A stretch of DNA of 64,000 nt from Escherichia coli (GTDB lineage: Bacteria > Pseudomonadota > Gammaproteobacteria > Enterobacterales > Enterobacteriaceae), in the NCBI RefSeq assembly GCF_024502345.1, contig NZ_JALDNN010000001.1; one strand, given 5' to 3'. Position numbers and translations under genes: made by a program. Positions 6,912 to 22,253 of the stretch are shown in pieces. How positions within the stretch are numbered: the stretch's first letter is position 1; each line of letters begins with the position of its first letter. The notes beneath the pieces were generated by a model. It ran no database searches, was not told the DNA's origin, and saw only the letters and a program-made list of their open reading frames with translations.

Positions 6912-8153
6912 ATGAAATGGTTTAACACTTTAAGTCACAACCGTTGGCTGGAACAGGAAACCGATCGCATCTTTGATTTTGGTAAAAATTCCGTAGTACC
7001 GACCGGATTTGGCTGGTTAGGCAATAAAGGGCAAATCAAAGAAGAGATGGGCACCCATCTGTGGATCACAGCTCGTATGTTGCACGTTTATTCCGTTGCT
7101 GCGGCGATGGGTCGACCTGGCGCTTACTCGTTGGTTGATCACGGTATTAAAGCCATGAACGGCGCACTGCGCGATAAAAAATATGGCGGCTGGTATGCCT
7201 GTGTGAATGACGAGGGCGTGGTGGATGCCTCCAAACAGGGCTATCAACATTTCTTTGCTCTGCTGGGTGCTGCCAGCGCCGTCACTACCGGTCATCCGGA
7301 AGCGCGCAAGCTGCTCGATTACACCATTGAAATTATCGAGAAATACTTCTGGAGCGAAGAAGAGCAGATGTGCCTGGAGTCCTGGGACGAAGCCTTCAGC
7401 AAAACCGAAGAGTACCGCGGCGGCAATGCCAATATGCACGCAGTGGAAGCTTTCTTAATTGTTTATGACGTAACGCATGACAAAAAATGGCTGGATCGCG
7501 CGATTCGCGTGGCTTCCGTGATTATCCACGACGTCGCAAGAAATAATCATTATCGCGTTAACGAACACTTCGATACCCAGTGGAATCCGCTGCCGGATTA
7601 CAACAAAGATAACCCGGCGCACCGCTTCCGCGCGTTCGGAGGTACACCAGGCCACTGGATCGAATGGGGCCGTTTAATGCTGCACATCCACGCGGCCCTG
7701 GAAGCCCGTTGCGAACAACCGCCAGCATGGTTGCTAGAAGATGCCAAAGGTCTGTTTAACGCCACCGTGCGTGATGCCTGGGCACCCGATGGTGCGGACG
7801 GGATTGTTTATACCGTTGACTGGGAAGGAAAACCGGTGGTCCGCGAACGTGTGCGTTGGCCTATCGTCGAAGCGATAGGTACGGCCTACGCGCTCTACAC
7901 CGTCACCGGCGATCGCCAGTATGAAACCTGGTATCAGACATGGTGGGACTACTGCATTAAGTACCTGATGGACTATGAAAATGGTTCCTGGTGGCAGGAG
8001 CTGGATGCGGACAATAAAGTCACCACGAAAGTCTGGGACGGCAAACAGGATATTTATCACCTGCTGCATTGCCTGGTGATCCCGCGTATCCCGTTAGCGC
8101 CAGGCCTGGCTCCGGCAGTTGCGGCGGGTCTGCTGGATATTAACGCGAAATAA
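6912..8153 (+). CDS. yihS: Sulfoquinovose isomerase (N-acylglucosamine 2-epimerase fold)
   Basis: 413-aa ORF; matches YihS. Confidence 0.95.
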
Positions 8154-13424: not shown

Positions 13425-13469
13425 TCATGCCCGCCCGTGGGGAAACTCACGGGCAAATGGAGAATAACG

Positions 13470-14855
13470 ATGAGTCACATCACAACGGAAGATCCGGCAA
13501 CTTTGCGCCTGCCCTTTAAAGAGAAACTCTCTTACGGTATCGGCGATCTGGCCTCTAACATCCTGCTGGATATTGGTACGCTTTATCTTTTGAAGTTTTA
13601 TACCGACGTTCTGGGGCTACCTGGCACCTATGGCGGCATTATCTTTTTGATCTCGAAATTCTTTACCGCCTTTACCGATATGGGAACCGGCATCATGTTG
13701 GATTCCCGGCGTAAGATTGGCCCGAAAGGTAAGTTCCGCCCTTTCATTTTGTACGCGTCATTCCCGGTCACCTTATTGGCAATCGCTAACTTTATCGGCA
13801 CACCGTTCGATGTCACTGGTAAAACGGTGATGGCCACTATTCTATTTATGCTCTACGGGCTGTTTTTCAGCATGATGAACTGCTCCTACGGCGCAATGGT
13901 TCCCGCCATTACCAAAAACCCCAACGAACGCGCATCGCTGGCGGCATGGCGTCAGGGTGGTGCTACATTGGGCCTGCTGCTGTGTACGGTGGGATTCGTG
14001 CCGGTGATGAACCTTATCGAAGGTAATCCGCAACTGAGCTACGTTTTCGCCGCCACGCTATTTTCACTGTTCGGCCTGCTGTTTATGTGGATCTGCTACT
14101 CGGGCGTGAAAGAGCGTTATGTCGAAACCCAACCTGCTAATCAGGCGCAAAAGCCAGGCTTGCTGCAATCTTTCCGCGCAATTGCCGGTAACCGCCCACT
14201 GTTCATTCTGTGTATTGCCAACCTCTGCACCTTAGGGGCGTTTAACGTCAAGCTCGCCATTCAGGTCTATTACACCCAGTACGTGCTTAACGATCCCATC
14301 CTGTTGTCGTATATGGGATTTTTTAGCATGGGCTGTATTTTCATCGGCGTGTTCCTGATGCCTGGCGCAGTTAGACGTTTTGGTAAGAAGAAGGTCTATA
14401 TCGGCGGCCTGCTGATTTGGGTGCTTGGCGATCTGCTCAACTATTTCTTCGGCGGCGGCTCGGTCAGTTTTGTGGCGTTCTCCTGCCTGGCATTCTTTGG
14501 CTCGGCGTTTGTTAACAGCCTGAACTGGGCGCTGGTTTCCGACACCGTCGAGTACGGCGAGTGGCGCACCGGTGTCCGTTCTGAAGGGACGGTCTACACC
14601 GGCTTCACCTTCTTTCGCAAAGTGTCTCAGGCGCTGGCTGGTTTCTTCCCCGGCTGGATGCTGACGCAAATCGGCTATGTGCCGAACGTGGCGCAGGCTG
14701 ACCACACCATTGAAGGGTTGCGCCAGCTGATCTTCATCTACCCAAGCGCACTGGCGGTAGTCACCATTGTGGCGATGGGTTGCTTCTACAGTCTGAACGA
14801 GAAGATGTACGTCCGCATTGTTGAAGAAATAGAAGCCCGTAAACGCACGGCGTAA
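13470..14855 (+). CDS. yihP: GPH-family (glycoside-pentoside-hexuronide:cation symporter) transporter
   Basis: Start set at ATG 13470 (MSHITTEDPATLRL...) preceded by GGAG; 461 aa; paralogous to the adjacent yihO. Confidence 0.9.
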   Translation: MSHITTEDPATLRLPFKEKLSYGIGDLASNILLDIGTLYLLKFYTDVLGLPGTYGGIIFLISKFFTAFTDMGTGIMLDSRRKIGPKGKFRPFILYASFPVTLLAIANFIGTPFDVTGKTVMATILFMLYGLFFSMMNCSYGAMVPAITKNPNERASLAAWRQGGATLGLLLCTVGFVPVMNLIEGNPQLSYVFAATLFSLFGLLFMWICYSGVKERYVETQPANQAQKPGLLQSFRAIAGNRPLFILCIANLCTLGAFNVKLAIQVYYTQYVLNDPILLSYMGFFSMGCIFIGVFLMPGAVRRFGKKKVYIGGLLIWVLGDLLNYFFGGGSVSFVAFSCLAFFGSAFVNSLNWALVSDTVEYGEWRTGVRSEGTVYTGFTFFRKVSQALAGFFPGWMLTQIGYVPNVAQADHTIEGLRQLIFIYPSALAVVTIVAMGCFYSLNEKMYVRIVEEIEARKRTA

Positions 14856-14894
14856 TAATAAACGACGCCCTGCGGGGCGTTATAAGGAGTGATT

Positions 14895-16298
14895 ATGTCT
14901 GACCATAATCCACTGACATTAAAACTGAATCTGCGGGAAAAAATCGCCTATGGTATGGGCGACGTTGGTTCGAATTTAATGCTTAGCATCGGTACTCTGT
15001 ATCTCCTCAAATTTTATACCGATGAATTAGGGATGCCAGCTTACTATGGCGGGATTATCTTTCTGGTGGCGAAGTTTTTTACCGCGTTTACCGATATGCT
15101 CACCGGATTTTTACTCGACTCGCGGAAAAATATTGGGCCTAAAGGCAAATTTCGTCCCTTTATTTTATATGCAGCGGTTCCGGCGGCGTTAATTGCAACG
15201 CTCCAGTTTATCGCCACCACTTTTAGTTTGCCGGTTAAAACGACGATTGCCACGGCGCTGTTTATGATGTTTGGGCTTTCATACAGTCTGATGAACTGCT
15301 CGTATGGCGCGATGATCCCGGCAATTACCAAAAACCCGAATGAGCGCGCGCAGCTCGCTGCTTACCGCCAGGGTGGTGCAACCATAGGGCTATTGATTTG
15401 TACCGTGGCGTTTATTCCGTTGCAGTCGCTTTTTTCTGACTCAACCGTCGGTTATGCCTGTGCGGCACTTATGTTCTCCATTGGCGGCTTTATTTTTATG
15501 ATGCTGTGCTACAGAGGCGTCAAAGAGCATTATGTGGACACAGCGCCAACCGGACATAAAGCCAGTATTCTCAAATCATTTTGCGCGATATTTCGGAATC
15601 CGCCATTGCTGGTTTTATGCATTGCTAACTTGTGTACCCTGGCGGCATTTAATATCAAACTGGCGATTCAGGTCTATTACACCCAGTATGTGCTGCATGA
15701 TATTAATTTATTGTCGTGGATGGGATTCTTCAGTATGGGATGCATCCTCATCGGCGTATTACTGGTGCCATTAACTGTAAAATGTTTTGGTAAAAAACAG
15801 GTTTATTTAGCTGGCATGGTGCTATGGGCGGTTGGTGATATCCTGAATTATTTCTGGGGAAGTAACTCTTTCACTTTCGTCATGTTCTCTTGTGTCGCCT
15901 TTTTTGGCACGGCCTTTGTAAACAGCCTGAACTGGGCGCTGGTACCAGATACCGTAGATTACGGTGAATGGAAAACCGGTATTCGTGCCGAAGGTTCTGT
16001 TTATACCGGTTATACCTTCTTTCGTAAAATTTCTGCCGCACTTGCTGGCTTCTTGCCAGGCATTATGCTGACGCAAATCGGTTATGTTCCCAACATCGCG
16101 CAAAGTGATGCGACATTACAGGGTTTGCGTCAGCTCATTTTTATCTGGCCTTGTGCACTGGCAATTATTGCTGCATTGACGATGGGATTCTTTTACACAC
16201 TCAATGAAAAACGGTTTGCGTTGATTATTGAGGAAATCAACCAACGCAAAAATAAAGAAATTGAGACAGAAGAAAAAACGGCTTCCGTAACGTTATAA
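14895..16298 (+). CDS. yihO: GPH-family transporter (sulfoquinovose / SQ-glycerol importer)
   Basis: Start set at ATG 14895 (MSDHNPLTLKL...) with AAGGAG 5 nt upstream; 467 aa. Confidence 0.9.
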   Translation: MSDHNPLTLKLNLREKIAYGMGDVGSNLMLSIGTLYLLKFYTDELGMPAYYGGIIFLVAKFFTAFTDMLTGFLLDSRKNIGPKGKFRPFILYAAVPAALIATLQFIATTFSLPVKTTIATALFMMFGLSYSLMNCSYGAMIPAITKNPNERAQLAAYRQGGATIGLLICTVAFIPLQSLFSDSTVGYACAALMFSIGGFIFMMLCYRGVKEHYVDTAPTGHKASILKSFCAIFRNPPLLVLCIANLCTLAAFNIKLAIQVYYTQYVLHDINLLSWMGFFSMGCILIGVLLVPLTVKCFGKKQVYLAGMVLWAVGDILNYFWGSNSFTFVMFSCVAFFGTAFVNSLNWALVPDTVDYGEWKTGIRAEGSVYTGYTFFRKISAALAGFLPGIMLTQIGYVPNIAQSDATLQGLRQLIFIWPCALAIIAALTMGFFYTLNEKRFALIIEEINQRKNKEIETEEKTASVTL

Positions 16299-16364
16299 AT
16301 GTCAATAGCCGCTATTTCCATCCTGGTGGGTGGCGGCCTCCCTACGTTTAAAAATGGACTTATT

Positions 16365-17057
16365 ATGAAAAATATTAATGCAATAATTTTATTATCTTCT
16401 CTGACCTCTGCCTCAGTATTCGCTGGCGCATACGTCGAAAACAGGGAGGCATATAATCTCGCCTCCGATCAGGGCGAGGTTATGCTACGTGTGGGTTATA
16501 ACTTCGATATGGGCGCGGGTATTATGTTAACCAATACCTACACCTTTCAGCGAGAAGATGAACTAAAACATGGATATAACGAAATCGAAGGTTGGTATCC
16601 GTTATTTAAACCAACCGATAAATTAACCATCCAGCCCGGTGGCTTAATTAATGATAAGAGTATCGGTTCGGGTGGTGCAGTGTATCTGGACGTCAACTAT
16701 AAATTTGTACCATGGTTTAATCTGACAGTACGAAATCGCTATAACCATAATAACTATAGTTCAACAGATTTGAGCGGGGAACTGGATAATAATGACACCT
16801 ATGAAATTGGTACCTACTGGAATTTTAAAATCACCGATAAGTTCTCCTATACATTTGAGCCACATTATTTTATACGCGTAAATGACTTTAATAGCAGCAA
16901 TGGAAAAGATCATCACTGGGAAATCACTAACACCTTCCGTTATCGCATTAATGAACACTGGCTGCCTTATTTCGAATTACGCTGGTTAGATCGTAATGTC
17001 GAACCGTACCACCGCGAGCAAAACCAGATTCGTATCGGGACGAAGTATTTCTTCTGA
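16365..17057 (+). CDS. ompL: Outer-membrane porin OmpL
   Basis: Start set at ATG 16365 (MKNINAIILLSSLTSASVFA, signal peptide); 230 aa; ends in an aromatic C-terminal residue (F) typical of beta-barrel proteins. Confidence 0.85.
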   Translation: MKNINAIILLSSLTSASVFAGAYVENREAYNLASDQGEVMLRVGYNFDMGAGIMLTNTYTFQREDELKHGYNEIEGWYPLFKPTDKLTIQPGGLINDKSIGSGGAVYLDVNYKFVPWFNLTVRNRYNHNNYSSTDLSGELDNNDTYEIGTYWNFKITDKFSYTFEPHYFIRVNDFNSSNGKDHHWEITNTFRYRINEHWLPYFELRWLDRNVEPYHREQNQIRIGTKYFF

Positions 17058-17066
17058 TGTGAAACT

Positions 17067-17142
<76 letters not shown>

Positions 17143-17147
17143 ATTAA

Positions 17148-18413
17148 TTAAGCTTCAGCCGCCAGCATCTCTTTCTTACGTTGGCTAATACGCTTAACCA
17201 GCATTACGGAAACCACCGCACCACAGAATGCGAAGCAGGCCATAATGCCAAACACGATTTTGTAGCCAATAATCCCCGGATTTAAATCCAGAATGTAGCC
17301 ATACAGACTGAAGCAGAACATCGCCGGGGCGTAACCAATAAAGCTACCCAACGCCATCGCCGCGCCTGTTTTATTTTCAGCAATTTTTGCTTCGCCGATA
17401 GGTGCAAAAAATACGGCTCGCTGTGTAAAGACTATCGCGCCAAAGCCCAGCGTACATGCCATCCCTAAATAGACCGGCATACTTTCGTGCGGCAGCATAA
17501 TCAACAGTACGAGCGCAGCGGTACTGATGATAAAGGTGTAGCATAGATATTTACTCGGCGATTTCAGGATCTTATCTGAAATCATGCCACCAATCGGTCC
17601 ACCAATCATTTTCAGACAGTATTGGTTAATGATGCCGTAAGCCCCCACCAGCGCAACGGGCAATAGATAGATGTTTTTCAGGAATGGAATGAAGAATGTC
17701 AGGCCACAGTAAACCGCGTAAACGAAGAAGACGTTGAAAGCGATAAGCCAGATAGTTTTGTCTTTCAGCACCGAGGTCATACTGGTGTTTTGCGATGCCC
17801 CGTCTTCTTTTTTCACCTCAACGGACGGTGCCTCTTCTTTGTCATTCAGGACAAAGAAAATAATAATGCCTACGGCAATCACAATAAGGGAATAGAACCA
17901 GATGCCTGCTTTAAAACCTAATAAGCCACTGCCAAACCAGGTAAATACTGCCAACGCAGAAAATGCCACCACGGTATCGACAATGCCACGCCCTGTTTCG
18001 AAGAAGCCAAACAACCGACCTTGTTGTTCGCTATTGCCCAATCGACTTACCGACTTGAGCAAGACCGGCCAGTTCATCATGTCGCAAGTAACGCCAAATA
18101 GCGCCCAGACAAAGAGGATGCCCCAATACCCCGGCATTGTCGTCAAATAAACACCCAGTAATCCTGTCGCAATGAGTGAGAATGACATGGTGTATCTGCG
18201 CGGTAGTTTATCGGCAAAATAAATAGACAGAAAAAAGCCCACTGTGGTGACAAATGAGTTTACCGACATAGCATTACCAATTTGACCATTGGTCAAATGG
18301 AAATATTCCTGCATCGGGATATAAAACGCATCTTTCAGCGACGGTAATTTATAAATTGTACCGCCACACAGTGTTAATAGACTAAATAACGCCCATTTCT
18401 TTTTCGTGAGCAT
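17148..18413 (-). CDS. yihN: MFS transporter
   Basis: 421-aa ORF with about 12 predicted TM segments; matches YihN. Confidence 0.9.
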   Translation of the reverse strand: MLTKKKWALFSLLTLCGGTIYKLPSLKDAFYIPMQEYFHLTNGQIGNAMSVNSFVTTVGFFLSIYFADKLPRRYTMSFSLIATGLLGVYLTTMPGYWGILFVWALFGVTCDMMNWPVLLKSVSRLGNSEQQGRLFGFFETGRGIVDTVVAFSALAVFTWFGSGLLGFKAGIWFYSLIVIAVGIIIFFVLNDKEEAPSVEVKKEDGASQNTSMTSVLKDKTIWLIAFNVFFVYAVYCGLTFFIPFLKNIYLLPVALVGAYGIINQYCLKMIGGPIGGMISDKILKSPSKYLCYTFIISTAALVLLIMLPHESMPVYLGMACTLGFGAIVFTQRAVFFAPIGEAKIAENKTGAAMALGSFIGYAPAMFCFSLYGYILDLNPGIIGYKIVFGIMACFAFCGAVVSVMLVKRISQRKKEMLAAEA

Positions 18414-18514
18414 AACATCCCCTAAGCGATTTTTAAAATCACTGTTTTAAAGGCAATAAGATACCGACCATTCATATAGAATGGTTTTATTAACTGCGTA
18501 TGAGTTAAAACTTA

Positions 18515-19495
18515 TTAGTGGTTCAGAAGATGGTTTGCCTCTTGTTTGATTTGTTGTAGTACGTTACGCACATGATTTATCTGATTAATTGCATCTTCTT
18601 TTTCTTTACGTAACCGCGCATCCAGTAAATGATTTTCTGGTAGGGGTGTTTCACTCATCTGGCGATAAGGGATCCACGGATTATCATCTTCGTCTTCAAA
18701 GCGGAACGCCGGCGCATAGTAATCAACCTCTTCTTCCAGGCCATATGCCGTCACCTGCGGCTCATCATCACCAAGGCAGATAAGGTGCGTTAATAACGCT
18801 TTGAACGGCATATCACCCTGACCTGAAATACAGGCTTTATGACCCAGGCCACCCTGTTCTTTAACGATCAAGGCATCTTTAATATGGACCTGGGTAATAT
18901 GCGGTGCCATCGTTTTTAAGGCGTCGATGGGATGCTCATTTGCATTGATCATGTTCGCAAAATCAAACAGTAAGGAAAGAGACTCCATCTCACTTTCTTT
19001 GACCAGCGACACCAACTCATGACTTTTTAAATCTTCATGCTGCTCGATCGTAAAAGTCAGGCCGCTGTCCTGATACGTTTCCCGTACATAGGCAATGTCG
19101 TTAGCGATAATCGATAATACGTCGCGCAAATTACCTTCATAACGTGGATAAAAACGTACGGACGATGCCCCAGTTTTCAACGCGATGGCGACGGCTTCGT
19201 CAATAGATGCCTTATCTGAGGCGCTGGTTTCAATATGAATATCAAGGTTCAGACGGCGGGCTTTATCCCCAAAGGCAGAGAGTTCTTTATCGTCCATATT
19301 ACCAAGAGAAAAACGCTCGCCATCCAGAACATGGATTTTGACGCCACGTAGATTATTTTCACTTGCGATATCAAGTAAATCAGCAGGCAACACTCTTTCC
19401 AGCCGCATATTTAAATGAAAGGCATAAGCATGTAAATAAAGAGGAAGAGTGTCGACACGTTGTAGAATCTTTCTTGCGTTATTTATTGTCACCAT
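18515..19495 (-). CDS. yihM: Sugar-phosphate isomerase/epimerase (xylose-isomerase-like TIM barrel)
   Basis: 326-aa ORF; matches YihM. Confidence 0.9.
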   Translation of the reverse strand: MVTINNARKILQRVDTLPLYLHAYAFHLNMRLERVLPADLLDIASENNLRGVKIHVLDGERFSLGNMDDKELSAFGDKARRLNLDIHIETSASDKASIDEAVAIALKTGASSVRFYPRYEGNLRDVLSIIANDIAYVRETYQDSGLTFTIEQHEDLKSHELVSLVKESEMESLSLLFDFANMINANEHPIDALKTMAPHITQVHIKDALIVKEQGGLGHKACISGQGDMPFKALLTHLICLGDDEPQVTAYGLEEEVDYYAPAFRFEDEDDNPWIPYRQMSETPLPENHLLDARLRKEKEDAINQINHVRNVLQQIKQEANHLLNH

Positions 19496-19502
19496 AAAAC
19501 AC

Positions 19503-20213
19503 CTACAGATTAATGATGAGGTCTACGGCCTCAAATCGCCAATATTCAATATCTATCTGGACAATATTGCCTTGCTGGTCGGCGCGATGCTTTTCAATTA
19601 AGATCGCTGGCATACCCGCAGAACCGCCAAGATACTTGCTGATATCGCCCGGCATTCTGACGGGTTTGAAAATCAATTTTTTTACTACCGTCTCTTTTTG
19701 GTAGCACTTTTCCCAGACTGCAGAAAATGAGTGGTTTTCAAGTTGTTCAATAAAACCCGGAGCAACTTCAGGATTAATATATGTTTCGTGATAGAAAACT
19801 TTATGTCCTTCCAGCGCCCCCCAGCCGGTGATGCGATAGAGTTCAGTTGATGGCGTCACTGCAATCAGTGGCGCGAGCGTCTGGGGAATGTCGCTGGTAC
19901 GGCTTTTCTCGGTAAACCCCCAGGAAGGTTCCCGCCCTTGCTCAATTGCGGCCCGCTGAAAGCTCGCCGACAGCTCCGGACTGTAATTAAATCGCGGCTG
20001 GGTCACGAACCACCCCTTACGATCCTTACGGAAGATTTTGGATTCTGCCTCGAGGTTCAACAACGCCTGGCGCAGCGTCATACGTTTAATGCCCAGCAGT
20101 TCTCCCAGCTCTCTTTCTGAAGGGAGTTTTCCACCCGGCGTGGTGATGCCATCTTTCAACCACCGATCCAGTTTCTCTTTTGCATTTTCTACGGTGGATT
20201 GATTCTCCGCCAT
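19503..20213 (-). CDS. yihL: GntR-family transcriptional regulator (HTH plus UTRA domain)
   Basis: 236-aa ORF; N-terminal GntR HTH (LPSERELGELLGIKRMTLRQAL); 7 bp upstream of yihM. Confidence 0.9.
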   Translation of the reverse strand: MAENQSTVENAKEKLDRWLKDGITTPGGKLPSERELGELLGIKRMTLRQALLNLEAESKIFRKDRKGWFVTQPRFNYSPELSASFQRAAIEQGREPSWGFTEKSRTSDIPQTLAPLIAVTPSTELYRITGWGALEGHKVFYHETYINPEVAPGFIEQLENHSFSAVWEKCYQKETVVKKLIFKPVRMPGDISKYLGGSAGMPAILIEKHRADQQGNIVQIDIEYWRFEAVDLIINL

Positions 20214-20379
20214 TGTTTAATCCTTTTGGTTTAAACCAGATGAAGCATCTTACGCTTACGCCAAAAAAGAAAGCAATTAACGGTGTATGACTTTGCAGAT
20301 AATTGTGACAAAGCTCTCTATTGACGTAATCCCAGACTTATAAGGGAGATACTCGCATTGGTGTGCGCTCACGACAGGT

Positions 20380-20412
20380 AAAAAAAAACCTGCCAGCGAT
20401 GGCAGGTTTTTT
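20380..20412 (-). terminator. Rho-independent terminator of typA
   Basis: Hairpin CCTGCCAGCGATGGCAGG (20389-20406) flanked by an A-run and a T-run; on the minus strand the stem is followed by a U-run. Confidence 0.8.
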
Positions 20413-20429
20413 ATAACTAAAAAACGAAA

Positions 20430-22253
20430 TTAATCGTCTTTCGGTGCGCGGTTAGCGCGACGACGATCGTTTTCCGTCAGGTGACGTTTACGAATACGGA
20501 TAGAGGTCGGAGTCACTTCTACCAGTTCGTCATCATCGATGAACTCCAGAGCTTGTTCCAGAGTCATGCGGATAGGCGGAACCAGAACAACAGCTTCGTC
20601 AGTACCGGAAGCACGCATGTTGGTCAGTTTCTTACCGGTCAGGCAGTTTACAGTCAGGTCGTTAGAGCGGCTATGAATACCGATAATCTGACCTTCGTAA
20701 ACTTCTGCACCGTGACCGAGGAACAGCTTACCGCGATCCTGCAGACCGAACAGCGCGAACGCGACCGCTTTACCCTGACCGTTAGAGATCAGTACACCGT
20801 TCTGACGCTGACCCACTTCGCCCGGACGTACGTCGTCGTAGTGGCTGAAGGTGGAGTACAGCAGACCAGTACCGGAAGTCATGGTCATGAACTCAGAACG
20901 GAAGCCAATCAGACCACGGCTTGGGATCACGTAGTCGAGACGTACGCGGCCTTTACCGTCTGGATTCATGTTTTTCAGGTCGCCTTTACGTTCGCCCAGC
21001 GCCTGCATTACAGAACCCTGATGCTGTTCTTCAACGTCCAGAGTCACGTTTTCATATGGCTCTTGTTTACGACCGTCGATTTCACGGAAGATAACTTTCG
21101 GACGGGATACCGCCAGTTCGAAACCTTCACGACGCATGTTTTCGATCAGAACAGACAGGTGTAGTTCGCCACGACCAGAAACGCGGAACGCATCAGCGTC
21201 TTCGGTTTCTTCTACGCGCAGCGCAACGTTGTGTACCAGTTCTTTGTTCAGACGATCCAGGATCTGACGAGACGTTACGAACTTACCTTCTTTACCGCAG
21301 AACGGCGAGGTGTTAACGCAGAAGAACATAGAAACGGTCGGCTCATCAACGGAGAGTGCCGGCAGCGCTTCAACGTTTTGCGTGTCGCAAACGGTGTCAG
21401 AAATGTTCAGTTCGCCAAGGCCCGTGATCGCAACGATATCGCCAGCTTCCGCCAGATCGGTTTCGATACGTTCCAGACCGAGGTGGCCCAGCACTTTACC
21501 GACTTTCGCGTTGCGGGTTTTGCCTTCGCTATCGATGATAGTAACCTGCTGGTTCGGCTTCACTTTACCGCGCTTGATGCGGCCAATGCCGATAACGCCA
21601 ACATAGCTGTTGTAATCGAGCTGAGAAATCTGCATCTGGAACGGACCGTCAAGGTCAACGTCCGGCGCAGGAACGTGGTCAACAATCGCCTGGTACAGCG
21701 GGGTCATGTCTTCCGCCATATCTTCGTGGTCCAGACCCGCGATACCGTTCAGCGCAGAAGCGTAAACGATCGGGAAGTCCAGCTGCTCGTCGGTCGCGTC
21801 GAGGTTAACGAACAGATCGAATACCTGATCCACAACCCAATCAGGACGCGCGCCAGGGCGGTCAACTTTGTTGATAACAACAATCGGCTTCAGGCCGTAA
21901 GCAAACGCTTTTTTGGTTACGAAGCGCGTTTGCGGCATCGGGCCGTCAAATGCGTCAACCACCAGCAGCACTGAGTCTACCATGGACATTACACGTTCAA
22001 CTTCACCACCGAAGTCGGCGTGCCCCGGGGTATCAACGATGTTGATACGGTAATCATTCCATTTGATAGCGGTGTTTTTCGCGAGGATGGTAATCCCACG
22101 CTCTTTCTCCAAATCGTTGGAGTCCATCACGCGCTCTTGGGTTTCGGCACGAGAGTCGAACGTACCGGATTGTTGGAGCAGCTTGTCTACCAGGGTGGTT
22201 TTACCATGGTCTACGTGCGCGATGATGGCGATATTACGCAATTTTTCGATCAC
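20430..22253 (-). CDS. typA: Ribosome-binding translational GTPase TypA/BipA
   Basis: 607-aa ORF with G1 motif AHVDHGKTT; EF-G/LepA-like. Confidence 0.95.

What the first reader, a model, noticed from the sequence alone, without database searches (positions are those of the whole stretch)
17148..20213. yihL-yihM-yihN: compact regulator, TIM-barrel sugar-phosphate isomerase/epimerase and MFS transporter operon of unknown substrate
Downstream of typA lie a GntR/UTRA regulator (yihL), a xylose-isomerase-like TIM-barrel enzyme (yihM, 7 bp downstream) and an MFS transporter (yihN), all co-directional. This is the architecture of a small substrate-inducible uptake and conversion module. To my knowledge its substrate is unassigned; it lies next to the sulfosugar locus, which may hint at an anionic sugar or sugar-acid substrate.
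Basis: partly seen in the sequence, partly recalled or inferred. Interest (0 to 1): 0.45.

Follow-up and report, generated by a model that had tools for sequence, protein, structure and literature searches.

The report
yihLMN: orphan regulator-enzyme-transporter cassette
Three E. coli genes (a repressor, a metal-dependent TIM-barrel enzyme and a membrane transporter) form a self-contained, horizontally mobile nutrient-uptake cassette whose repressor binding site can now be named, but whose substrate is still unknown and is probably unrelated to the neighbouring sulfosugar genes.

Summary
yihL (GntR+UTRA, 20213-19503), yihM (xylose-isomerase-like TIM barrel, 19495-18515; 7-nt gap) and yihN (MFS, 18413-17148; 101-nt gap) lie co-directionally downstream of typA. 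I found no functional assignment in the searchable literature.

New here:
- A perfect palindrome, TGGTTTAAACCA, sits 14-25 nt upstream of yihL. It lies inside the strongest published YihL ChIP-exo peak. It is conserved exactly upstream of 55 of 63 yihL orthologues, from Enterobacterales to Marinobacterium and Rhodobacterales.
- The trio recurs in many unrelated chromosomal neighbourhoods across more than 20 genera, and about 20% of complete E. coli genomes lack it. Adjacency to the sulfoquinovose locus is therefore most likely coincidental.
- YihM belongs to a small, structurally unsolved subfamily. It keeps the Glu-Asp-His-Glu metal site and has extra conserved arginines.
- YihN lacks the phosphate-binding residues of GlpT/UhpT.
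- In relatives the transporter and regulator are swapped for ABC importers, MocR-type or YheO-like regulators. RidA, a HisN-like phosphatase or an agmatinase-like hydrolase is sometimes added. This hints at an anionic, nitrogen-bearing substrate.

Verdict: an ordinary, Crp-activated, repressor-controlled catabolic cassette with an orphan substrate. Co-transcription of yihN is unproven, and published operon tables name only yihLM.

The parts
19503..20213 (-). yihL: GntR-family, HutC-subfamily (wHTH + UTRA) repressor, autoregulated
   Evidence: ChIP-exo shows its own promoter as the only strong site (S/N 60; PMC8464067 supplement).
18515..19495 (-). yihM: divergent xylose-isomerase-like TIM-barrel enzyme with an inferred Glu151-Asp178-His204-Glu254 metal site and a long C-terminal helix (288-325)
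17148..18413 (-). yihN: MFS transporter, probable importer; not a canonical organophosphate:phosphate antiporter
   Evidence: No PDB sequence relative. GlpT/UhpT signature residues absent. Linked to yihM in 67 of 86 loci.
20227..20238 (.). YihL operator: perfect palindrome TGGTTTAAACCA, core GT-N-TA-N-AC, at -25..-14 from the yihL ATG
   Evidence: Single exact copy in the 64-kb window. There are 65 exact copies in 1.43 Mb of related loci against 0.085 expected, and 64 of them lie at a yihL start. It lies inside the ChIP-exo peak after coordinate conversion.
20247..20276 (-). Predicted sigma-70 promoter of yihL: -35 TTGCTT (20271-20276), 18-nt spacer, -10 TAAGAT (20247-20252). The operator would cover about +2..+13.
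   Evidence: Read by eye; the consensus scan did not call it. Similar hexamers precede the operator in Citrobacter and related genera. An RpoD-holoenzyme SELEX peak lies in the typA-yihL spacer (PMC3946193). No transcription start site has been mapped.
20304..20319 (.). Candidate class-I CRP site (TGTGACAAAGCTCTCT; one good half-site), centred about -71.5 from the predicted start
   Evidence: Pattern match with 2 mismatches. Such matches are not enriched in the window, so the sequence evidence alone is weak. Crp bound the yihLM promoter fragment in EMSA and the unit is listed as Crp-activated (PMC8085971).
18467..18485 (-). Stem-loop ACCATTC-tatat-GAATGGT, 30 nt after the yihM stop, with no U-tract; possible mRNA-stabilising or processing hairpin inside the unit
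   Evidence: Fold. The stem is kept with compensatory changes in Pseudocitrobacter, Enterobacter and Raoultella (3 of 7 pairs covary).
20377..20445 (-). typA 3' end and intrinsic terminator (13-bp stem plus U9): upstream boundary of the cassette
   Evidence: Fold energy -18.7 kcal/mol, z -4.85. Rfam STnc370, 54.9 bits against a gathering score of 54.
17061..17133 (.). REP-type palindromic elements between convergent yihN and ompL: downstream boundary
   Evidence: Fold energy -39.6 kcal/mol. naRNA4/REP-like Rfam match below the gathering score. Hundreds of thousands of short matches genome-wide.

Best explanation
yihLMN is a self-contained, horizontally acquired catabolic cassette for one small exogenous compound.

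Shown or strongly supported:
- YihL, a HutC-type GntR repressor, binds a single operator, TGGTTTAAACCA. The operator lies just downstream of the predicted -10 of its own promoter.
- That promoter also binds Crp, so it is subject to catabolite control.

Inferred:
- The substrate or its product binds the UTRA domain and releases YihL.
- Transcription then runs through yihL and yihM. It continues, at least partly, across a U-less hairpin into yihN.
- YihN imports the compound.
- YihM is a mononuclear-metal (Glu-Asp-His-Glu) TIM-barrel enzyme. It carries out one proton-transfer step next to a carbonyl: an isomerisation, an epimerisation or a beta-elimination. This step feeds the product into central metabolism.

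Most speculative:
- The substrate is anionic and carries nitrogen, for example an amino sugar, amino-polyol or amino acid-like compound, possibly phosphorylated.
- The YihM reaction passes through an enamine/imine that releases ammonia.
For: Anatomy: three co-directional genes with gaps of 7 and 101 nt. A strong terminator lies upstream and REP elements lie downstream.

Regulation:
- The ChIP-exo peak at S/N 60 lies only at the yihL promoter and overlaps the palindrome.
- The palindrome is exact in 55 of 63 orthologous loci. It occurs 65 times where 0.085 is expected by chance.
- No second copy precedes yihN in any locus.
- Crp gel shift and 'Crp activation'; RpoD-holoenzyme binding in the typA-yihL spacer.

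Module behaviour:
- The L-M-N order is conserved in more than 20 genera with many different flanks.
- G+C drops to 0.39-0.45 against 0.53 in typA.
- About 20% of E. coli genomes lack the genes.

Uptake direction: in relatives with 44-50% identity, YihN is replaced by SBP-dependent ABC importers.

Enzyme:
- PF01261 scores above its threshold.
- E151, D178 and H204 are invariant across the family. E254 is invariant among close orthologues. R114 and R265 are invariant and R278 is nearly so.

Nitrogen and phosphate hints:
- YihL's only strong NCBIfam match is PhnR, the 2-aminoethylphosphonate regulator (184 bits; next best 51).
- RidA lies inside the operon in Photobacterium and in Proteus/Providencia.
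- A HisN-like IMPase-family phosphatase is translationally coupled to the YihM homologue. In Marinobacterium it sits under the same YihL operators.
- An agmatinase-like gene is coupled in Gemmobacter and Rhodobacterales.
- MocR-type regulators and PhnS/PhnT2-like ABC components occur alongside.
Against: - No substrate, inducer or enzyme activity is known; everything about the chemistry is inference from context.
- Published operon tables call the unit yihLM, not yihLMN, and a conserved hairpin follows yihM. yihN may therefore be partly uncoupled.
- The accessory genes (RidA, phosphatase, agmatinase-like) occur with paralogues or homologues of only 44-63% identity. These may use different substrates; the E. 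coli cassette has none of them.
- YihN lacks the GlpT/UhpT phosphate-binding residues, which weakens the 'phosphorylated substrate' part.
- One enzyme alone rarely suffices for a full catabolic route.
- The predicted promoter and the CRP site are weak matches.
Confidence: 0.6

Rival explanations
1. Sugar-phosphate scavenging module. YihN would be an organophosphate:phosphate antiporter of the UhpT/GlpT/PgtP kind. YihM would be a sugar-phosphate 3-epimerase or isomerase like UlaE/SgbU, converting an imported rare sugar phosphate into a pentose-phosphate or glycolytic intermediate.
For: The best NCBIfam hit of YihN is the PgtP subfamily (70 bits), and the best of YihM is L-ribulose-5-P 3-epimerase. 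RefSeq names YihM 'sugar phosphate isomerase/epimerase family'. IMPase-family phosphatases and a Na/Pi-symporter-like gene lie next to distant homologues. YihM has conserved arginines.
Against: Both hits fall far below the curated cut-offs (70 against 408 bits; 17 against 200). In an alignment with GlpT, UhpT and UhpC, the residues R45, K46, K80, H165 and R269 of GlpT are Ser, Leu, Phe, Arg and Tyr in the whole YihN family. phmmer finds no solved relative of YihN. The hypothesis does not explain RidA, the MocR-type regulators or the PhnR-like regulator.
Confidence: 0.15
2. Accessory part of sulfoquinovose (sulfosugar) metabolism. The trio would handle a sulfonated sugar or a sulfoglycolysis side product, as its position next to ompL-yihOPQRSTUVW suggests.
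For: Physical adjacency in E. coli. Some deletions remove yihM/N together with ompL-yihQ. Both units are Crp-activated.
Against: In Aeromonas, Serratia, Buttiauxella, Morganella, Citrobacter group B, Photobacterium, Acinetobacter and Neisseriaceae the same trio lies in unrelated neighbourhoods with no sulfoquinovose genes. It has its own regulator and operator. E. coli BEN5202 carries a yihU/kinase/aldolase-type locus directly beside typA without yihLMN. No paper in the library links the genes to sulfoquinovose.
Confidence: 0.04
3. Not a nutrient pathway. YihN would be a broad-specificity influx or efflux carrier for lipophilic cations and xenobiotics, and YihM a detoxifying or metabolite-repair enzyme.
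For: A yihN knockout accumulates far less of many fluorescent dyes than wild type (PMC8131027). yihM overexpression appeared in an oxidant-resistance screen list (PMC8228696). The RidA association could reflect control of reactive-intermediate damage.
Against: The authors of the dye study themselves discuss pleiotropy. The promoter is Crp-activated, as catabolic operons are. Relatives use SBP-dependent ABC importers in place of YihN. The regulator is a local HutC-type repressor, typical of catabolic operons.
Confidence: 0.1
4. A cryptic or decaying remnant with no current function in E. coli.
For: About 20% of complete genomes lack the genes. yihM is more polymorphic than yihN: 971 against 3873 genomes are at least 99% identical to the window. 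Expression is low under laboratory conditions (no phenotype reported).
Against: Reading frames are intact in more than 4100 genomes. The operator is perfectly conserved. YihL is expressed and binds in vivo. Catalytic residues are invariant.
Confidence: 0.05

Closest known systems
PhnR-controlled 2-aminoethylphosphonate utilisation (phnR-phnSTUV-phnWX of Salmonella; NCBIfam TIGR03337, TIGR03227, TIGR03265)
   Same: YihL's only strong family match is PhnR (full-length alignment, 184 bits). Distant YihM clusters use PhnS/PhnT2-like ABC components. Both are local GntR/HutC repressors of an uptake-plus-conversion unit.
   Different: YihL scores below the PhnR cut-off (296.75). No phnW/phnX (transaminase or phosphonatase) is linked. 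The enzyme is a TIM barrel, not a PLP or HAD enzyme, and the transporter is an MFS.
frlABCDR (fructoselysine/psicoselysine) operon of E. coli (comparison from my own knowledge of the system)
   Same: A HutC-type GntR regulator, a dedicated transporter and a xylose-isomerase-like TIM-barrel enzyme (FrlC, a 3-epimerase) act on a nitrogen-bearing sugar derivative.
   Different: frl also needs a kinase and a deglycase. YihM is not close to FrlC or any ketose 3-epimerase (identity at most 20%). The transporter classes differ.
Ketose / sugar-phosphate 3-epimerases and relatives of the xylose-isomerase-like superfamily (D-tagatose/D-psicose 3-epimerase, UlaE, IolI, IolE, AsbF, Art22)
   Different: Sequence identity is 11-20%. 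YihM has a roughly 70-residue C-terminal extension carrying conserved R265, R278, S281 and E298 and a 38-residue terminal helix. NCBIfam scores for UlaE and IolE are about 17 bits against cut-offs of 200 and 290.
NagR/YvoA and DasR (HutC-subfamily repressors with solved structures)
   Same: Best solved relatives of YihL (E 1e-12 to 1e-10 over both domains). The palindromic operator has a GT-N-TA-N-AC core.
   Different: Those sense GlcNAc-6-P / GlcN-6-P and control nag/pts genes. The YihL effector is unknown and its regulon appears to be only its own operon.
Organophosphate:phosphate antiporters GlpT / UhpT / PgtP (TIGR00881)
   Same: Same MFS fold class. They are the best family-level hit for YihN. 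Several motifs align (D88, W138, Y266 and Y393 of GlpT are conserved).
   Different: The substrate-binding arginines and lysines (R45, K46, K80, R269) and H165 are replaced. The score is 70 against a cut-off of 408.

Membership tests
GntR family, HutC subfamily | N-terminal winged-helix GntR domain | tested here: met
   PF00392, 70.2 bits against a cut-off of 27, residues 8-70.
GntR family, HutC subfamily | C-terminal UTRA (chorismate-lyase-like) effector domain | tested here: met
   PF07702, 77.2 bits against 23.8, full-length match 91-230. Best solved relatives are YvoA/NagR and DasR.
GntR family, HutC subfamily | Palindromic operator with a GT-N-TA-N-AC core, bound by the protein | tested here: met
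   TGGTTTAAACCA at 20227-20238, conserved across 55 of 63 orthologous loci. It lies inside the published ChIP-exo peak. The subfamily consensus itself is recalled from the literature, not tested here.
GntR family, HutC subfamily | Release from DNA by a small-molecule effector | not testable with these tools
   No effector is known.
PhnR (TIGR03337 equivalog) | Score above the curated cut-off | tested here: not met
   184.1 bits against a cut-off of 296.75.
PhnR (TIGR03337 equivalog) | Adjacency to 2-aminoethylphosphonate degradation genes | tested here: not met
   No phnW/X/S/T/U/V beside yihL in E. coli or in the group A/B loci.
Xylose-isomerase-like TIM barrel (PF01261, AP_endonuc_2) | Profile match above the gathering score | tested here: met
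   36.2 bits against 31.1.
Xylose-isomerase-like TIM barrel (PF01261, AP_endonuc_2) | (beta/alpha)8 fold superimposable on family members | tested here: met
Xylose-isomerase-like TIM barrel (PF01261, AP_endonuc_2) | Glu/Asp/His/Glu metal ligands at the C-terminal ends of strands 5-8 | tested here: met
   E151, D178 and H204 are invariant in 38 sequences, and E254 in the 16 close orthologues. Each follows a predicted strand. Metal binding itself was not tested.
L-ribulose/L-xylulose-5-phosphate 3-epimerase (UlaE/SgbU, PRK13210) | Score above the curated cut-off | tested here: not met
   17.2 bits against 200; 12-16% identity in structure alignments.
Inosose dehydratase IolE (TIGR04379) | Score above the curated cut-off | tested here: not met
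   17.3 bits against 290.
Major facilitator superfamily | MFS_1 profile over both six-helix halves | tested here: met
   PF07690, 94.1 bits, residues 33-364.
Organophosphate:Pi antiporter family (GlpT/UhpT/PgtP) | Family profile above the cut-off | tested here: not met
   TIGR00881, 70.5 bits against 407.75.
Organophosphate:Pi antiporter family (GlpT/UhpT/PgtP) | Phosphate-binding Arg in TM1 and TM7 (GlpT R45, R269), plus K80 and H165 | tested here: not met
   A MAFFT alignment with GlpT, UhpT and UhpC gives S, Y, F and R at these columns in all nine YihN-family sequences. At this low identity the alignment carries some uncertainty.
Sulfoquinovose (yih/csq) gene cluster | Conserved co-occurrence with sulfoglycolysis genes across genomes | tested here: not met
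   The trio is found without them in many genera, and a sulfosugar-type locus occurs without the trio.
Sulfoquinovose (yih/csq) gene cluster | Control by CsqR (YihW) or induction by sulfoquinovose | not tested
   No data found in the library.
Single transcription unit yihL-yihM-yihN | One transcript spanning all three genes | tested here: inconclusive
   For: there is no terminator-like site or promoter-like site in the 101-nt spacer on the coding strand; no separate operator; the gene order is conserved. Against or uncertain: operon tables say yihLM, and a conserved hairpin follows yihM.

The most novel reading that the evidence does not exclude
YihM would found a new reaction class within the xylose-isomerase-like superfamily. 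It would be a PLP-independent, metal-dependent isomerase or lyase that deaminates an aminated, anionic (possibly phosphorylated) sugar-like nutrient through an enamine/imine intermediate. That intermediate would explain why RidA is recruited in Proteus and Photobacterium. YihL/YihN would define the sensor and carrier for a still unrecognised gut or environmental nutrient of Enterobacterales.
Probability: 0.2. Interest if true: 0.6.

Novelty: new member of a known kind. Interest (0 to 1): 0.38.

Why it matters
These are three of the remaining function-unknown 'y-genes' of E. coli K-12. The architecture is ordinary: a local repressor, one enzyme and one carrier. The enzyme, however, belongs to a small subfamily with no solved structure and no known reaction. 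Only 47 cluster representatives out of 1.84 billion score below 1e-30.

The operator defined here is one 12-bp palindrome, conserved unchanged across orders of Gammaproteobacteria and into Alphaproteobacteria. It turns the substrate question into a simple experiment: a P(yihL) reporter can be screened for de-repression. The context data narrow the candidate list towards nitrogen-bearing anionic compounds and away from sulfosugars.

If the enamine/imine idea holds, it would add a new chemistry to a well-studied fold and a new nutrient to enterobacterial physiology.

Tried and rejected
- Sulfosugar link: rejected on comparative context.
- PhnR, UlaE, IolE and OPA membership: each fails its curated cut-off. 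The OPA signature residues are absent.
- Solved-structure sequence searches: nothing at all for YihN. For YihM only weak hits appeared, to Art22 and an uncharacterised Planctomyces protein.
- Literature on Art22/aurantinin: nothing useful.
- Operator string in the literature: no relevant paper.
- GlpU/glycerophosphodiester link for YihN (recalled from memory): no support found.
- Consensus promoter/terminator scan: it called neither a yihL promoter nor even the obvious typA terminator, and found nothing in the yihM-yihN spacer.
- CRP pattern search: matches are not enriched in the window (174 against 216 expected), so the candidate site rests on position and on the published gel shift, not on statistics.
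- Contexts of very distant homologues P0126 and P0151: the contigs were too short.
- Supplement of PMC8085971: not held.
- Not run: the remaining two large protein searches and the second structure job. They were unlikely to change the verdict.
Full report
OBSERVATION. The ORF list and the sequence show three minus-strand genes at exactly the stated coordinates:
- yihL, 20213-19503 (236 aa)
- yihM, 19495-18515 (326 aa), starting 7 nt after the yihL stop
- yihN, 18413-17148 (421 aa), 101 nt further on

typA (22253-20430) is upstream on the same strand. ompL (16299-17057, plus strand) converges on yihN. Pfam assigns GntR+UTRA, AP_endonuc_2 (xylose-isomerase-like TIM barrel) and MFS_1 respectively, all above their gathering scores. 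RefSeq annotation of near-identical E. coli chromosomes gives the same names.

REGULATION. A perfect 12-bp palindrome, TGGTTTAAACCA (20227-20238), lies 14-25 nt upstream of the yihL start codon. It is the only exact copy in the 64-kb window.

Gao et al. 2021 (PMC8464067, supplementary file 5) report three YihL ChIP-exo sites. One has signal/noise 60 and is assigned to yihL; the other two are near 5. Its coordinates (4058436-4058459) fit their own gene assignment only in the older MG1655 numbering. I checked this against the positions of yihL and cspA in NC_000913.3. With the +1977 offset the peak spans about -34..-11 from the ATG, and the palindrome is at -25..-14.

I fetched 93 related loci and scanned them.
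- The exact 12-mer occurs 65 times in 1.43 Mb, where 0.085 is expected by chance.
- 64 of those copies are next to a yihL orthologue's start.
- 55 of 63 loci with a YihL orthologue (40-99% identity) have the exact motif. Most of the rest have a one-base variant, such as TGGTTTATACCA in one Citrobacter/Buttiauxella paralogue group.
- Marinobacterium and an Oceanospirillaceae MAG carry four tandem copies between the divergent transporter operon and yihL-yihM. A Rhodobacterales MAG carries two.
- No locus has a second copy in front of yihN.

The motif follows weak -35/-10 hexamers (TTGCTT-18-TAAGAT, read by eye) at a conserved distance, so it would cover the transcription start. Independent published data agree with a promoter here. 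RNA polymerase sigma-70 holoenzyme binds the typA-yihL spacer in genomic SELEX (PMC3946193). Crp shifts the yihLM promoter fragment, and the unit is classed as Crp-activated (PMC8085971). A candidate CRP site with one good half lies at 20304-20319, but such matches are not enriched in the window.

UNIT BOUNDARIES AND CO-TRANSCRIPTION. Upstream, typA ends in a 13-bp stem plus U9 terminator (-18.7 kcal/mol, z -4.85). This region also matches Rfam STnc370 at its gathering score. Downstream of yihN are REP-type elements.

The yihL-yihM junction is 7 nt in E. coli and -4 to +17 nt in other genera, so those two genes are surely co-transcribed. The yihM-yihN spacer has no terminator-like or promoter-like site on the coding strand. 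It does contain a hairpin without a U-tract (18467-18485). That stem is preserved with compensatory changes in related genera (modest evidence, 3 of 7 pairs).

Both papers that name the unit call it yihLM. I therefore treat read-through into yihN as likely but unproven. The hairpin may stabilise or process a yihLM segment.

A MOBILE, SELF-CONTAINED CASSETTE. YihM orthologues (62-98% identity) occur across Enterobacterales, Aeromonas, Photobacterium, Neisseriaceae and Acinetobacter. My context script shows three groups.
- The E. coli-type trio L-M-N. It has many different flanking gene sets, for example between typA and ompL in Escherichia, other sites in Serratia, Buttiauxella, Morganella and Aeromonas.
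- A paralogous trio with YihM about 60% and YihN about 50% identical. It sits, for example, between yiiM and cpxA in Citrobacter. Some genomes carry both trios (Citrobacter sp. R56: L017 and L057).
- More distant homologues at 44-50% identity in Rhizobiaceae, Rhodobacterales and Marinobacterium.

G+C falls to 0.39-0.45 within yihM against about 0.53 in typA. In E. coli, 4156-4250 of 5426 complete genomes have full-length yihM/yihN. The rest fall into three patterns:
- a different DeoR/kinase/yihU/aldolase/ADH/MFS locus directly beside typA
- a deletion from yihM to yihQ
- an IS1-associated loss of yihN to yihQ

The neighbourhood with the sulfoquinovose genes is thus specific to Escherichia and not a functional signal.

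- uncharacterised Planctomyces and Parabacteroides proteins
- IolI, IolE, AsbF, xylose isomerase, C-glycoside deglycosidases, UlaE and endonuclease IV

E151, D178 and H204 are invariant family-wide, and E254 among close orthologues. They sit at the ends of strands 5-8, where this superfamily binds its catalytic metal. H153, E154, N181, S91, R114, R265, S281 and E298 are also invariant. R265, R278, S281 and E298 lie in a C-terminal extension that ends in a 38-residue helix.

I infer a mononuclear-metal enzyme that moves a proton next to a carbonyl (isomerase, epimerase or eliminase) on an anionic substrate. No specific reaction can be transferred.

YihN. It is an MFS protein whose best family hit is the PgtP/organophosphate antiporter subfamily, but far below the cut-off. 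It has no solved sequence relative. Aligned with GlpT, UhpT and UhpC, the whole YihN family lacks R45, K46, K80, H165 and R269. It is therefore not a canonical phosphate antiporter.

A knockout accumulates much less of many dyes (PMC8131027). The authors read this as influx activity while cautioning about pleiotropy.

CLUES TO THE SUBSTRATE (inference only).
(i) YihL's sole strong NCBIfam match is PhnR, the 2-aminoethylphosphonate regulator (184 bits, full length; next best 51).
(ii) In Proteus/Providencia the regulator is replaced by a divergent YheO-like protein, and the operon reads RidA-YihN-YihM. In three Photobacterium species RidA sits between yihM and yihN. RidA hydrolyses enamines and imines.
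(iii) In the distant group the carrier is an SBP-dependent ABC importer with PhnS/PhnT2-like or Dpp-like components. The regulator is MocR-type, or YihL with the same operator. The gene overlapping the end of the YihM homologue is either a HisN-like IMPase-family phosphatase (253.6 bits against a HisN cut-off of 275) or an agmatinase-like hydrolase.
(iv) In Marinobacterium nitratireducens the phosphatase lies in the divergent ABC operon under the four YihL operators.
(v) A BetA-like oxidoreductase and an NCS1 permease are conserved beside the Ensifer-type cluster.
(vi) Other remote homologues sit with amino-acid ABC transporters, an aminotransferase, a DAO-type oxidase or a shikimate-dehydrogenase-like gene.

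Taken together these point to a small, nitrogen-bearing, anionic compound, possibly a phosphate ester. They also point to a YihM product that may be an enamine or imine. This could arise, for example, from aldose-ketose isomerisation of a 2-amino-aldose or from dehydration of an amino-hydroxy compound. The homologues involved are only 44-63% identical to E. coli YihM, so the transfer is weak. I give this specific reading about 0.2.

LITERATURE. Full-text searches for yihL, yihM, yihN and yihLM found no functional assignment. YihL is listed among transcription factors of unknown function (PMC9308461; PMC4797297). YihN's substrate is described as unknown. yihM appears only in screens and pangenome comparisons. 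The library does not cover most subscription journals, so an assignment elsewhere cannot be excluded.

VERDICT. It is a Crp-activated, YihL-repressed uptake-and-conversion cassette with an orphan substrate. The sulfosugar hint is not supported, and co-transcription of yihN remains to be shown.

It is a new (uncharacterised) member of a familiar kind of system, and of moderate interest.

Noticed in passing
window 20377-20445 (-): The typA 3' end plus terminator matches the Rfam sRNA family STnc370 just at its gathering score (54.9 against 54). This suggests a 3'-UTR-derived small RNA of typA/bipA.
   Followed up: partly
window 18467-18485 (-): A stem-loop lies 30 nt after the yihM stop. It is conserved in structure rather than sequence across Escherichia, Pseudocitrobacter, Citrobacter, Enterobacter and Raoultella, and has no U-tract. 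It could be an mRNA processing or stabilising element, or a partial attenuator between yihM and yihN.
   Followed up: partly
window 17061-17133: REP-type repeats (naRNA4-like, below the gathering score) lie between convergent yihN and ompL. They account for the very large number of short matches across E. coli genomes.
   Followed up: partly
L100 (E. coli BEN5202), L098 (HS-01), L099 (2017.04.03CC): There is strain-level structural variation next to typA. Some strains have a different DeoR/sugar-kinase/yihU/aldolase/Zn-ADH/two-MFS locus in place of yihL through the K-12-type sulfoquinovose genes. Others have deletions from yihM to yihQ, or an IS1-linked loss of yihN to yihQ.
   Followed up: partly
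window 18515-19495 versus 17148-18413: Within E. coli, yihM is markedly more polymorphic than the adjacent yihN. Only 971 genomes are at least 99% identical to the window for yihM, against 3873 for yihN. This is unexplained; recombination or relaxed constraint are possibilities.
   Followed up: no
L072, L075, L085 (about 7116-7212); L093 (635-671): Arrays of four (Marinobacterium, Oceanospirillaceae) or two (Rhodobacterales) exact TGGTTTAAACCA copies lie in divergent promoter regions, spaced 19-27 bp apart. This suggests cooperative binding of YihL orthologues that control a Dpp-type ABC operon as well.
   Followed up: partly
L017 and L057 (Citrobacter sp. R56); L038 and L062 (Buttiauxella agrestis): Some genomes carry two paralogous L-M-N cassettes (about 60% YihM identity between them). 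One has a one-base operator variant (TGGTTTATACCA), which implies two related substrates or insulation between the two regulators.
   Followed up: partly
literature: Many of the 'yihN' hits in the paper search are from plague detection and surveillance studies of Yersinia pestis. I did not open these papers.
   Followed up: no
window 13437-16298 (+) and 16299-17057 (+): yihO, yihP (two paralogous GPH-type transporters) and ompL lie on the opposite strand and converge on yihN, as in K-12. G+C is also low in ompL (0.38-0.41).
   Followed up: no
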